DNA from: the human T2T-CHM13v2.0 reference genome, Homo sapiens
Strand: one strand, 5' to 3'
Length of the DNA: 64,000 bases
Assembly (NCBI RefSeq): GCF_009914755.1
Contig: NC_060937.1
Below, piece after piece: positions 17,067 through 19,381 of this stretch. The translations under genes were made by a program, and so were the position numbers. Every line of letters begins with the position of its first letter. Position 1 is the first letter of the stretch. The notes under the pieces were generated by a model that was not told the DNA's origin, did no database searches, and saw only the letters and a program-made list of their open reading frames with translations.

Positions 17067-17781
17067 ATGAAATGTGGGACTGCAGGCATGACAGAGTCCT
17101 GACCACTTTTGTTAACTGAAGAATGCCCACTCTACTGAAAAATAACAATCACTACTTTGTTGTTGCCATTGGAAATTCTGGCTGAGTATTGCCAGGCATT
17201 TTGACTGATTAAGAGGAGGCAGAAATCTAGATTTTTAAAATGTGCAATCTCCAAACAATAAACATATAATAATTTAAATAATGTTTAAGTACATAAAAAC
17301 AAGCACATGGCCACATCTGCCATAGAGAACTATTATTAGGAGTGGTTATATCCACATTGTTTTTTCTCTTAAACTCAAGACTGCTGCCATTACAAACATG
17401 TCAAGGTTGCATTAGCTTTAGTAGGCAATTATGTTGTCATTGTGTGAGCTTTTGTACAGTAATAATATTATTTTATAAAAGGTATACTATAATTTAATAA
17501 AATCTAAAAGAATCGTAAAGTATCTTAACCTGATGTAGTTACATAATTCAAAGGTGAATCTCATTCATCATATATAGAAAATCTGAAATACTAGATAGAA
17601 ATTTTTCTGACTATTTGATATAAGACAACATAGGATATATTTATGTCCAATTTTATAAACTTGATAATTTATTATAGACTATATGTTAGTTAAGAGATAG
17701 GTGTGTAGCATTTGTAGTAATATCAAATTTTGATACTGAGTTATTAGAAATAATTCCTACAATGCCCATTGATTATTTTCT

Positions 17782-18302
17782 TTTTATTATTTTTTAATTT
17801 TACTTTAAGTTCTGGGATACACGAAAGAACATGCAGGTTTATTACATAGGTATACATGCGCCATGGTGGTTTGCTGCACTTATCAACCCGTCATCTAGGT
17901 TTTAAGCCCCACATGCATTAAGTATTTGTCCCCTTGCCCCCCTACCCCCTGACAGGCCCTGGTGTCTGATGTTCCCCTCCCTGCGTCCATGTGTTCTCAC
18001 TGTTCAACTCCCACTTATGAGTGAGAACATGCAGTGTTTGATTTCCTGTTCCTGTGTTAGTTTGCTGAGAATGATGGTTTCCAGCTTCATCCATGTCCCT
18101 GCAAAGGACATAAATTCATTCTTTTTTATGGCTGCATAGTATTCCATGGTGTATATGTGCCCCATTTTCTTTATCCAGTCTATCATTGGTAAGTATTTGG
18201 GTTGGTTCCAAGTCTTTGCTATTGTAAATGGCGCTGCAATAAACATACGTATCCATGTGTCTTTACAGTGAAATGATTTATAATCTTTTGAGTATATACC
18301 CA
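17782..18302 (-). mobile_element. 5'-truncated L1 3' end (L1PA8-like), 3' part of a chimeric insertion
   Basis: Reverse-complement L1 3'UTR and ORF2 C-terminus (ORF 18004-18303: ...WIKKMGHIYTMEYYAAIKKNE...). T-rich tail abuts the left TSD copy. Confidence 0.9.
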
Positions 18303-18817
18303 AGAACTCCCACTATTGAGTGAGATTCTCAAAGTATGGGGGATAAGGGAGGAGACCATCCCTCATATTGTCTTATGCCCAATTTCTGCCTCCGTAGAAA
18401 AAAGAAGTAAAAACTAAAAGGCAGAAATGCAATCCACAAGCAGACAGCCTGGCGCCACACCCTGGGCCTGGTAGTTAAAGATCGACCCCTGACCTAATCA
18501 GTTATGTTATCTATAGAATACAGACATTGTACAGAAAAGCACTGTGAAAATCCCTGTTCTGTTTTGTTCCAATCTAATTACCGGTGCATGCAGCCCCCAG
18601 TCCCGTACCCCCTGCTTGCTCAATCGATCACGACCCTCTCACGTGCACCCCCATAGAGTTGTGAGCCCTTAAAAAGGACAGGAATTGCTCACTCAGGGAG
18701 CTCGGCTCTTGAGACAGGAGTCTTGCCGATGCTCCCGGCTGAATAAACCGCTTCCTTCTTTAACTCGGTGTCTGAGGTGTTTTGTCTGTGGCTTGTCCTG
18801 CTACATTTCTGGGTTCC
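18303..18817 (+). mobile_element. HERV-E/Harlequin fragment: internal 3' end and PPT (18303-18343), complete LTR2 (18344-18805), start of leader/PBS-Glu (18806-18817)
   Basis: LTR begins taagggaggagacca.ccctcatattgtcttatgcccaatttctgcc and ends gtcctgctaca (462 bp, internal AATAAA). It is preceded by agaactcccact..gagtgagattctcaaag..ggggga and followed by tttct(g)ggttcc, matching recalled HERV-E internal 3' and 5' termini. Confidence 0.82.
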
Positions 18818-18858
18818 TACAATGTCCATTGATTATTTTCTATAAAAAGTATTTATAA

Positions 18859-18958
18859 GGCTGGTCTGAGTGCCATTGCATTTACAACTAATCGATCATA
18901 ACCAATTACAGATTTCTTTGTTCATTCTCCATTCCCACTGCTTCTCTCGACTAGCCTT
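18859..18958 (+). pseudogene. Y3 RNA (RNY3) retro-pseudogene
   Basis: ggctggtctgagtgc...tttacaactaatcgatcataaccaattacagatttctttgttc...gactagcctt, about 13 mismatches in 100 nt against recalled hY3. Flanked by degenerate TSD aagtatt(t/c)ata. Confidence 0.9.
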
Positions 18959-19381
18959 AAACAGAAGTATTCATATAACCAAGAGAATTCATGATATATA
19001 TATTATTAAGAGCTACTTGACACTTTAGGGATATTTTAATTGAAATATTATTCTTAAATAAATATTGAGTAAAGGTGTTTTGTGTAGGGAGTTTTAAATA
19101 AGATATTAATAAATAATATTGTGAATATTTCCTTTGCTCTAAGAGCTTTACCTACATTACTACATTTCATTTTATAAAAGCCTGATGAAATACATATTAT
19201 TATTGTGTCAATTTTACATAATAAAAAACAAATTACAGAAAACTTTAATTACTTGCACAGCATCTCTCAGTTAACACCTGGTACATCCACAATATTAACC
19301 CGGCTCTAGAGCCCACTCTGAGAAACACTTCTTTTTATGACTTCATCCCAGATGTAAAAAGAGTTAATTGCAATTAATATA

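What the first reader, a model, noticed from the sequence alone, without database searches (positions are those of the whole stretch)
17754..18841. L1/HERV-E chimera: an L1 insertion that appears to have captured a retroviral reverse-transcription intermediate (PPT-LTR-PBS)
Seen: a 28-bp direct repeat ttcctacaatg(c/t)ccattgattattttct (17754-17781, 18814-18841; one mismatch) encloses, as one unit, a minus-strand L1 tail and 3' end (17782-18302) fused to a plus-strand HERV-E/Harlequin piece. That piece runs ~40 nt of internal 3' end with polypurine tract, a whole LTR2 (18344-18805), then tttct-(g)ggttcc. Known: a solo LTR has a short TSD and no internal flanks. A provirus has the PPT only before the 3' LTR and the PBS (TGGTTCCCTGACCGGGAA, tRNA-Glu) only after the 5' LTR. 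PPT-LTR-PBS on one molecule occurs in tRNA-primed minus-strand cDNA after strand transfer, in 1-LTR circles, or in tandem proviruses. Inference: during target-primed reverse transcription, L1 cDNA grew rightwards on the + strand, then jumped onto or was joined to HERV-E minus-strand cDNA and copied into the tRNA primer. The junction resolved through a 4-nt ttcc microhomology shared by the PBS and the target. Alternatively, the target's GGAA-3' end primed at the PBS as a tRNA mimic. Either way it would be a fossil of cross-talk between non-LTR and retroviral replication machineries.
Basis: partly seen in the sequence, partly recalled or inferred. Interest (0 to 1): 0.8.

Follow-up and report, generated by a model that had tools for sequence, protein, structure and literature searches.

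The report
L1 insertion fused to permuted HERV-E LTR
One ancient L1 jumping-gene insertion carried in a piece of the retrovirus HERV-E whose parts lie in an order seen only while a retrovirus copies itself, so it looks like a rare fossil of the two copying systems meeting.

Summary
A 27/28 direct repeat (17754-17781 / 18814-18841) encloses a minus-strand L1 3' end with its A tail (17782-18302). Joined to it is a plus-strand HERV-E piece: 41 nt of internal 3' end with PPT (18303-18343), a whole LTR2 (18344-18805), the spacer TTTCT, and the start of the tRNA-Glu PBS. The last four PBS bases (TTCC) are shared with the repeat.

Genome copies fix these borders. 3'-LTR copies align from 18303 to 18805; 5'-LTR copies align from 18344 to 18817.

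No other place in this assembly holds the L1/HERV joint. I found no HERV-E LTR2 flanked by both internal ends, and no second LTR2 with a cut PBS.

Best reading (0.6): one L1 target-primed event in which the HERV-E half is a minus-strand cDNA that began in the PBS and passed an R-to-R strand transfer. I cannot tell the primer. The nicked target's GGAA-3' end (twin priming, about 0.33) and tRNA-Glu with the retroviral enzyme (about 0.27) are close.

Rivals are RNA from a tandem provirus or 1-LTR circle, captured circle DNA, and two separate events.

It is a new variant of known L1 chimeras. It is a single fossil, and primate orthologues could not be checked here.

The parts
17754..17781 (.). Left copy of the 28-nt target-site duplication
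   Evidence: family D1 (27/28 with 18814-18841). It ends in ...ATTATTTTCT and is directly followed by the L1 tail.
17782..17797 (-). L1 A-rich tail, read as a T-rich run on the + strand
   Evidence: TTTTATTATTTTTTAA, followed by the reverse complement of an L1 3' terminus.
17798..18302 (-). 5'-truncated L1 3' end (end of ORF2 plus 3' UTR)
   Evidence: 80-82% to the two longest L1 copies in the window; 86-89% to the 39 non-self genome matches. L1 copies continue ...TATATACCCA-GTAATGG, whereas the window reads ...TATATACCCA-AGAACTCCC, so L1 ends at 18302.
18303..18343 (+). HERV-E internal 3' end (41 nt) with the polypurine tract just before U3
   Evidence: the 39 other matches start at query 23/24, which is 18302/18303; all 14 3'-LTR-type loci shown carry this same stretch before the LTR and continue upstream with HERV-E sequence that the window lacks.
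18344..18805 (+). Complete HERV-E LTR2 (462 nt). Approximate parts, inferred from motifs only: U3 to about 18698, R about 18699-18762, U5 about 18763-18805.
   Evidence: colinear alignment to 5', 3' and solo copies, best 93-94%. TATA-like TTAAAAAGG at 18669 and AATAAA at 18742. The U3/R/U5 borders are inferred, not measured.
18806..18810 (+). TTTCT, the spacer that lies between U5 and the PBS in proviruses
   Evidence: present after the 5' LTR of proviruses. It is absent after the 3' and solo LTRs (L002, L008, L010, L029, L033).
18811..18817 (+). Start of the tRNA-Glu PBS: GGGTTCC against TGGTTCC in proviruses. 18814-18817 (TTCC) is shared with the repeat.
   Evidence: In one search, 34 of 39 non-self matches run to query 86-89, which is 18815-18818. 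None of the 100 listed junctions has G at the first PBS base.
18814..18841 (.). Right copy of the target-site duplication. The L1 first nick lies after it (TTTTCT/ATAAAAAG on the + strand).
18305..18325 (+). 21-nt stretch of the HERV-E flank that is 19/21 identical to L1 stretch 18006-18026. The HERV-E piece starts 2 nt to its left. Its role is unexplained.
   Evidence: D2; conserved in HERV-E copies; predicted pairing of HERV sense RNA with L1 sense RNA is -33 kcal/mol, rank 16 of 491 windows. The 15 stronger windows all lie in one C-rich LTR tract.

Best explanation
About 20-35 million years ago, one L1 endonuclease / target-primed reverse-transcription event inserted a 1,032-bp two-part unit.

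Steps:
1. The + strand was nicked at TTTTCT/AT. Its 3' end primed on the L1 A tail and made 520 nt of L1 first-strand cDNA (17782-18302).
2. The other half (18303-18813) is a HERV-E minus-strand cDNA. It began in the primer-binding site and ran through TTTCT, U5 and R.
3. It then moved by R homology to the 3' end of HERV-E RNA and went on through U3, the PPT and 41 nt of internal sequence. This order, PPT side - LTR - PBS side, is the order on retroviral minus-strand DNA after the first strand transfer. No integrated provirus has it.
4. The two cDNAs were joined head to head without overlap at 18302/18303, each then serving as template for the other strand.
5. On the right, the HERV-E half is tied to the target through TTCC/GGAA.

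I cannot tell who primed and copied.
- (i) About 0.33. The 3' overhang of the second nick (...GTAGGAA-3') annealed to UUCC in the PBS of ordinary HERV-E RNA, and L1 ORF2p did the copying. This is twin priming plus one homology-guided template switch.
- (ii) About 0.27. tRNA-Glu and the retroviral enzyme made the cDNA, and the L1 cDNA jumped onto its 3' end and copied it into the first 7 nt of the tRNA.

Shown: the anatomy, the borders and the uniqueness of the arrangement. Inferred: every enzymatic step.
For: Single event:
- A 27/28 repeat encloses both parts.
- Neither part has a repeat of its own.
- The tail abuts the left repeat, and the nick site is L1-like.

Permuted topology with authentic termini:
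- 3'-LTR copies align 18303-18805, and 5'-LTR copies align 18344-18817.
- The window matches TTTCT plus the PBS at 11 of 12 bases in register.

Not an ordinary genomic arrangement:
- 19 of 20 3'-LTR-type matches stop at the LTR end. The one that runs on (L046) has a genomic flank, not a PBS.
- Gapped patterns for internal end + LTR + TTTCT-PBS gave 0 hits twice. The same engine gave 45 hits for LTR start + TTTCT-PBS.

No donor: only the window matches across the L1/HERV joint (40 of 102 candidates scored).

Ages are compatible:
- The star-branch divergence is 4.4% for the LTR and 6.4% for L1.
- LTR2 proviruses are dated at 23-32 My in the table of PMC4379568 (passages seen).

Precedent:
- PMC13174262 attributes L1 chimeras with antisense partners to twin priming (passages, section 10 and Table S3 read).
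- L055 has the same architecture with an ERV partner: repeat, T tail, L1 minus strand, ERV plus strand, repeat.
Against: - No step of the mechanism is observed. This is a single locus.
- Priming inside the 18-nt PBS by a 4-nt match is a coincidence under variant (i).
- Access of L1 complexes to an unfinished retroviral cDNA is unproven under variant (ii).
- An R-to-R transfer by L1 ORF2p has not been described, to my knowledge.
- The first PBS base is G, not T (18811).
- The L1 part has more private differences than the LTR part: 29 of about 490 sites against 12 of 462. The star branches are 6.4% and 4.4%, a difference of about 1.4 standard errors by my arithmetic. Under one event they should be alike, unless the 20 L1 comparators are of a neighbouring subfamily or the L1 source was old.
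- No G-to-A excess that would mark editing of retroviral minus-strand DNA: 2 G>A and 3 C>T among the 12 sites.
- The gapped searches need exact motifs, so their sensitivity is perhaps a third. A tandem provirus that existed then may since have been lost.
Confidence: 0.6

Rival explanations
1. Twin priming on a sense RNA that already carried internal end - LTR - leader. Such an RNA would be a read-through transcript of two proviruses in tandem sharing a middle LTR, or of a 1-LTR circle (from infection, or excised when a solo LTR formed). No strand transfer is needed.
For: It has the same architecture as known twin-priming chimeras (PMC13174262) and as L055. It needs only RNA and L1 machinery. 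I recall that tandem proviruses are known for other HERV groups; I did not check this here.
Against: No HERV-E LTR2 with both internal flanks was found (0 hits, against 45 for the control). None of the 20 3'-LTR-type matches is followed by a real PBS. Such RNAs would be a small fraction of HERV-E RNA, and the priming site would still fall within 12 nt of the LTR end by chance.
Confidence: 0.08
2. A double-stranded DNA fragment of unintegrated HERV-E DNA (a 1-LTR circle, or a partly double-stranded replication intermediate) was ligated between the stalled L1 cDNA and the other end of the break by end joining.
For: The left joint is blunt and the right joint has 4 nt of microhomology, as in end joining. 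The PBS is the natural 3' overhang of plus-strand strong-stop DNA (established retrovirology, recalled). I also recall that cDNA of the yeast element Ty1 is captured at breaks.
Against: For a circle, both breaks would have to fall within 41 and 12 nt of the LTR edges. By my estimate that happens below 1% of the time for a random 515-nt piece of an element of about 8.8 kb. There is no precedent at L1 sites in the four literature searches made.
Confidence: 0.07
3. Two separate events. An L1 insertion came first with its 28-nt repeat. Later a HERV-E fragment was placed exactly between the L1 5' end and the right repeat copy.
For: The L1 part looks more diverged than the LTR part.
Against: The HERV-E piece has no repeat of its own. 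It ends in register with the PBS exactly where the repeat starts, with a 4-nt overlap. It would have had to land at one precise position. Neither a solo LTR nor a provirus has this topology.
Confidence: 0.04
4. An ordinary copy (transduction, duplication or gene conversion) of a pre-existing L1/HERV-E arrangement elsewhere in the genome.
For: None found.
Against: Only the window matches across the joint. Only the window matches the whole HERV-E piece with a real PBS start.
Confidence: 0.01

Closest known systems
L1 chimeric insertions with an antisense partner, read as twin priming (tRNA halves, 5S rRNA, antisense mRNA; Law & Burns 2026, PMC13174262; the twin-priming model of Ostertag & Kazazian 2001 is recalled)
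   Same: One repeat encloses a 5'-truncated L1 with its A tail and a second sequence in the opposite orientation. There is microhomology at the target side.
   Different: The partner here is a retroviral LTR with both internal flanks, which no single ordinary RNA carries. The locus is not in their tables: no 'LTR2' row other than chr2:205.35 Mb, 0 hits for 'HERVE', 'KLHL1', and chr13:69 or 70 Mb. Supplements mmc1, mmc6 and mmc7 (PDF) could not be read.
Same-orientation L1 chimeras by template switching or RNA ligation (U6/L1 and others; Buzdin and co-workers recalled; PMC6789731 seen in the search listing only)
   Same: If the second template was the HERV-E minus-strand cDNA with its tRNA, the structure is of this type: L1 cDNA continues onto a second template and copies it towards its 5' end.
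   Different: The second template would be a DNA/RNA molecule made by another reverse transcriptase, not a cellular RNA. Relative to HERV-E RNA the orientation is antisense.
Retroviral minus-strand DNA after first strand transfer, plus-strand strong-stop DNA, and 1-LTR circles (textbook retrovirology, recalled)
   Same: The order is PPT side, then U3-R-U5, then spacer, then PBS.
   Different: Those are free replication forms. Here the order is fixed in a chromosome inside an L1-type repeat, with no integrase-type 4-bp duplication and no complete ends.
HERV-W processed pseudogenes made by L1 (PMC5016936 and PMC5537654, search listing and abstract start only)
   Same: L1 machinery acts on HERV nucleic acid.
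   Different: As I recall, those copies are colinear with the RNA (R-U5 ... U3-R plus A tail), carry no L1 part and have no permuted LTR.
L055 (T2T C2:205836420-205836502; hg38 chr2:205354230-205354474 in Law & Burns Table S3)
   Same: Repeat, T tail, L1 minus strand, HERV-E-like U5 plus strand, TTTCT, PBS, repeat.
   Different: It holds only 66 nt of U5/R and a whole tRNA-Glu copy. That copy shares one extra base and the next 4 nt with an ERV family that has the tRNA built in, whereas real tRNA-Glu genes align only to query 7-77. It therefore needs no strand transfer.

Membership tests
L1 target-primed insertion | Target-site duplication of L1 size enclosing the insert | tested here: met
   28 nt, 27/28 identical. 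This is long but, as I recall, within the known range.
L1 target-primed insertion | A tail next to one repeat copy, and a T-rich/A-rich nick site | tested here: met
   The tail is 17782-17797. The site is TTTTCT/ATAAAAAG, a variant of TTTT/AA (the consensus is recalled).
L1 target-primed insertion | L1 3' end present, 5' truncated | tested here: met
Classical twin-priming 5' inversion | The inverted segment comes from the same L1 RNA | tested here: not met
   The inverted segment is HERV-E.
Classical twin-priming 5' inversion | Microhomology at the priming site on the target side | tested here: met
   TTCC is shared by the PBS and the repeat.
Solo HERV-E LTR | LTR with no internal flanks and a short integrase-type duplication | tested here: not met
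   41 nt and 12 nt of internal sequence flank the LTR. There is no 4-bp repeat at the LTR edges.
HERV-E provirus or proviral remnant | Order LTR - PBS ... PPT - LTR | tested here: not met
   The order here is PPT - LTR - PBS.
L1-made HERV processed pseudogene | Starts at R, ends R plus A tail, colinear with the RNA | tested here: not met
   A whole LTR sits in the middle and the HERV part has no A tail.
Captured tRNA-primed minus-strand cDNA | tRNA sequence beyond the 18-nt PBS joined to U5 | tested here: inconclusive
   Only 3-7 nt of the PBS are present, so a PBS in RNA and a tRNA primer cannot be told apart.
Tandem provirus / 1-LTR circle product | Existence of a source with internal end - LTR - PBS | tested here: not met
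   0 hits against 45 for the control. These are exact-motif searches of limited sensitivity on one present-day genome.

The most novel reading that the evidence does not exclude
L1 ORF2p, in the middle of an insertion, jumped from its own RNA onto the 3' end of an unfinished HERV-E minus-strand cDNA. That cDNA had been made by the retroviral enzyme from a tRNA-Glu primer. ORF2p copied it back into the tRNA. This would be a chromosomal fossil of a retroviral replication intermediate caught about 500 nt after first strand transfer, and direct evidence that the two machineries met in a primate germ line.
Probability: 0.27. Interest if true: 0.75.

Novelty: new variant of a known kind. Interest (0 to 1): 0.55.

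Why it matters
If the reading holds, L1 insertion complexes can take in retroviral sequence in the replication-form order. They would do so either by copying a retroviral cDNA or by performing a retrovirus-like strand transfer themselves.

Three things would follow:
- It would be an integrase-independent route by which complete LTRs, which carry promoters and enhancers, reach new places.
- It would be a source of LTR copies that annotation would misread as proviral remnants or solo LTRs.
- It would be a testable hint that ORF2p can make homology-guided jumps between the ends of an RNA.

As it stands this is one locus in a KLHL1 intron with no sign of function.

Tried and rejected
1. Donor locus. 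An 81-nt query across the joint matched only the window over its full length.

2. Tandem or both-flank copies. The one full-length match (L046) is a 3' LTR with a chance PBS-like flank. Two gapped patterns gave 0 hits.

3. Other LTR2 copies with a cut PBS.
- A first pattern was far too loose: 21,612 hits against 6,730 for the reversed control.
- A tighter pattern gave 13 hits. The window is the only real LTR2 followed by TTTCT and then non-PBS sequence.
- Eight candidates taken had at most 16-20 nt of LTR likeness.

4. L055 as proof of a tRNA-primed cDNA. Rejected, because it shares an extra base and the flanking AAGT with the tRNA-bearing ERV family, while real tRNA-Glu genes align only to 7-77 of 83.

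5. Editing signature in the LTR part: none.

6. RNA-RNA tether at the 21-nt block.
- A whole-length duplex fold was uninformative: 2 of 30 shuffles reached the observed energy.
- In a window scan the block ranks 16 of 491, behind the C-rich LTR tract paired with the L1 G-rich tract.

8. Four literature searches and one on HERV-E listed no report of an L1 chimera with an LTR in this order. This is a statement about those searches of the held library only.
Full report
**What is in the sequence**

The longest repeat in 17400-19200 is a 28-nt direct repeat, 17754-17781 and 18814-18841, with one mismatch.

Directly after the left copy comes a T-rich run (17782-17797) and then the reverse complement of an L1 3' end up to 18302. 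This stretch aligns at 80-82% to the two longest other L1 copies in the window. It aligns at 86-89% to the 39 non-self genome matches that were scored, out of 10,780 candidates.

L1 copies in the window continue ...TATATACCCA-GTAATGG. The finding reads ...TATATACCCA-AGAACTCCC. L1 therefore ends at 18302.

**The HERV-E borders**

An 81-nt query across 18280-18360 matched only the window over its full length. The other 39 scored matches (40 of 102 candidates scored) began at query 23/24, which is 18302/18303.

A 101-nt query over the LTR end matched 39 other places (40 of 985 candidates scored). 34 of them run to query 86-89, which is 18815-18818. Five stop at 75-81, near the LTR end.

A BLAST of 17700-18900 against the 37 non-self loci fetched gave two clean classes:
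- All nine 3'-LTR-type loci align from 18302/18303 to 18805-18808.
- Of the 28 non-self loci, 27 align up to 18815-18818, and 20 of the 28 start at 18339-18345. L033 stops at 18805.

The piece is therefore:
- 41 nt of internal 3' end (18303-18343)
- a whole LTR2 (18344-18805)
- 12 nt of what follows a 5' LTR (18806-18817)

In all 14 3'-LTR-type loci shown the same 41 nt precede the LTR, and HERV-E sequence continues upstream. The window lacks that upstream sequence.

After 5' LTRs, proviruses read TTTCT and then the tRNA-Glu PBS. This holds for 14 of 19 non-self hits. The junction string has 30 exact and 205 near-exact copies. The window reads TTTCTGGGTTCC, 11 of 12 in register, and its last four bases are the first four of the repeat.

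The left joint (18302/18303) has no overlap: L1 would continue with G, and HERV-E is preceded by G.

**Is the arrangement ordinary?**

- In one search (40 of 1,315 candidates scored), 20 non-self matches start at query 1 and so are 3'-LTR type. 19 of them end at 503-506, the LTR end.
- The one that runs to 515 (L046) is a 3' LTR followed by a genomic flank with a chance PBS-like 14-mer.
- Two gapped patterns asking for the internal-end motif, an LTR-sized gap and TTTCT-PBS gave no hit.
- The same engine gave 45 hits (26 forward, 19 reverse) for LTR start, gap, TTTCT-PBS.
- A pattern for LTR2 end + TTTCT followed by something other than the PBS gave 13 hits. Only the window is a true LTR2 with TTTCT and a cut PBS.
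- Eight further candidates had no LTR likeness beyond 16-20 nt.

These pattern searches need exact or near-exact motifs and cover one present-day genome. They lower the case for a tandem-provirus source but do not remove it.

**One event or two**

Neither part has its own flanking repeat. The repeat begins exactly where the PBS match ends. The nick site after the right copy, TTTTCT/ATAAAAAG, is L1-like.

Divergence was compared without building any HERV-E consensus, from pairwise distances under a star tree:

| Part | Window copy | Comparators | Median | Range |
|---|---|---|---|---|
| LTR | 4.4% | 37 copies | 5.3% | 2.4-8.4% |
| L1 | 6.4% | 20 copies | 4.4% | 2.9-6.4% |

The difference is about 1.4 standard errors by my arithmetic.

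A cruder count gives 12 of 462 sites for the LTR and 29 of about 490 for L1. It counts sites where at least 80% of the other copies share a base that the window lacks. A separate majority-based count gave 32 of 490 for L1. This does count against a single event. However, the 20 L1 comparators were drawn from only 40 scored candidates of 10,780, so they may belong to a neighbouring subfamily.

The repeat copies differ at 1 of 28 positions.

LTR2 proviruses are dated at 23-32 My from LTR divergence in the table of PMC4379568 (passages seen). The event therefore falls in the time when HERV-E was active.

I put a single event at about 0.9.

**Mechanism**

On the + strand, the L1 cDNA grew rightwards from the left repeat copy.

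The HERV-E half, read on the minus strand from the right repeat copy, runs in this order: PBS start, TTTCT, U5, R, U3, PPT, then 41 nt of internal sequence. This is the order of retroviral minus-strand DNA after the first strand transfer (textbook knowledge, recalled). A provirus cannot give it, nor can a solo LTR or any single ordinary HERV-E transcript.

Two routes give such a cDNA.

*Route (i), target priming.* The second nick leaves a minus-strand 3' overhang ending GGAA. This overhang pairs with UUCC in the PBS of HERV-E RNA. ORF2p copies to the RNA's 5' end. After removal of the RNA, the R complement anneals to R at the 3' end of a HERV-E RNA and is extended.
- All steps but the R transfer are those of twin priming. 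PMC13174262 proposes twin priming for antisense partners in L1 chimeras (passages, section 10 and Table S3 part 2 read).
- Homology-guided switching between L1 RNAs has been reported (recalled, not checked here).

*Route (ii), capture.* A tRNA-Glu-primed cDNA made by the retroviral enzyme was used as second template by the L1 cDNA. The L1 cDNA copied it into the first 7 nt of the tRNA and then attached to the target by TTCC.
- This explains without coincidence why the piece ends at the PBS.
- It needs an unfinished retroviral cDNA at an L1 insertion site, for which I found no precedent.

My rough weighing is 0.33 for (i) and 0.27 for (ii), 0.6 together. It balances the abundance of ordinary HERV-E RNA against the chance of priming in the PBS.

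**The nearest analogue**

Table S3 of PMC13174262 lists tRNA-Glu 1-75, LTR2C 439-501 and an L1PA5 at hg38 chr2:205.35 Mb. I found this locus as L055 with a pattern for TTTCT-PBS not followed by the proviral leader (21 hits against 2 for the control).

Its build matches the window: repeat, T tail, L1 minus strand, 66 nt of U5/R plus strand, TTTCT, then the reverse complement of a whole tRNA-Glu with CCA, then the repeat.

It is not a tRNA-primed cDNA. At least six loci (L053, L056, L057, L060, L062, L066) form a HERV-E-like family in which the same tRNA copy sits between TTTCT and gag-side sequence. L055 shares with them one extra base near the tRNA 5' end and the next four bases. Real tRNA-Glu genes align only to 7-77 of the 83-nt query.

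L055 is therefore best read as twin priming on RNA of that family. That supports route (i) in kind, but it needed no strand transfer.

**Left open**

- A 21-nt stretch of the HERV-E flank (18305-18325) is 19/21 identical to L1 18006-18026. It is conserved in both families, and the HERV-E piece starts 2 nt from it, yet the joint is not at this block.
  - As RNA-RNA pairing it scores -33 kcal/mol, rank 16 of 491 windows.
  - The stronger windows all lie in the C-rich LTR tract, which pairs with the L1 G-rich tract.
  - It may have tethered the HERV-E template. I could not test that.
- The first PBS base is G where all 100 listed proviruses have T or, in two cases, C.

**Comparison and verdict**

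This is an L1 chimeric insertion of the antisense-partner kind, with a partner and a topology not listed in the catalogue I could read. PDF supplements mmc1, mmc6 and mmc7 were not readable.

It is not a solo LTR, a proviral remnant or an L1-made HERV pseudogene.

The claim of a captured retroviral intermediate is one of two near-equal readings.

I rate it as a new variant of a known kind, with interest 0.55. It is a well-defined and unusual fossil, but it is a single case and the decisive comparison with other primates remains to be done.

Noticed in passing
L053 (C2:159.34M), L056 (C8:7.83M), L057 (C13:40.68M), L060 (C3:128.42M), L062 (C8:12.98M), L066 (C2:96.06M). Rows only: C8:6823217 and C6:126968922.: A HERV-E-like ERV family. 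The LTR ends in ...CCTGCTCCA, and its R-U5 is about 76% identical to LTR2. It is followed by TTTCT and then the reverse complement of a whole mature tRNA-Glu including CCA, with one extra base. After that comes sequence that lies about 700 nt downstream of the PBS in ordinary HERV-E. It looks like a lineage founded by a plus-strand strong-stop DNA that read through the whole tRNA primer and lost the leader. I do not know whether repeat libraries already describe this.
   Followed up: partly
L055 (C2:205836420-205836502): An L1PA5 3' end in the opposite orientation to 66 nt of U5/R, TTTCT and the family's tRNA copy. It lies inside a 12-14-nt repeat within an Alu, at a TTTTTT/AAAAA site. It is listed as a tRNA/L1 chimera in Law & Burns Table S3, but it is better read as an ERV-RNA/L1 chimera.
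   Followed up: yes
L059 (C2:11584662-11584733): An insert of about 90 nt: 20 nt of U5, CTTCT and 66 nt of the tRNA-Glu copy. It lies inside an 18-19-nt repeat with 2 mismatches. It has no L1 part and no A tail, and an A run follows the right repeat copy. It may be a tailless L1-type insertion of ERV-family RNA or cDNA.
   Followed up: partly
L054 (C3:106879179-106879242): About 62 nt of U5, TTTCT and 56 nt of the tRNA copy, followed by GTATAATAATAAT and an A run. This resembles the last few bases of an L1 3' end plus its tail, in the same orientation as the ERV part. The evidence is weak.
   Followed up: no
window 18859-18960 and flanks 18844-18858 / 18959-18980: RNY3P10 is confirmed as a full Y RNA copy (Rfam Y_RNA, 58.4 bits). 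It has its own repeat-like flanks: AAGTATTTATA on the left and AAGTATTCATA on the right. It sits 17 nt right of the finding's repeat. The inferred first nicks of the two insertions lie within about 3 nt of each other on opposite strands of TTTTCTATAAAAAG, so the site was used twice by L1 endonuclease.
   Followed up: partly
L046 (C2:13555836-13556353, minus strand): The 3' LTR of a provirus is followed by GTAG, a 14-nt stretch that matches the TTTCT-PBS start at 11 of 14 bases, and GTAG again. This may be chance or a scar of an aberrant DNA end. The 5' flank was not checked.
   Followed up: no
C11:103576087 and C23:61834761 (rows): Proviral 5' junctions with altered PBS starts. One has the first 8 nt of the PBS duplicated. 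In the other, TTTCT is repeated in place of the first 7 nt of the PBS.
   Followed up: no
window 18590-18624 with 17904-17960: The C-rich tract of the LTR and the G-rich tract of the L1 3' UTR give the strongest predicted pairing between HERV-E sense RNA and L1 sense RNA (-37 kcal/mol).
   Followed up: no
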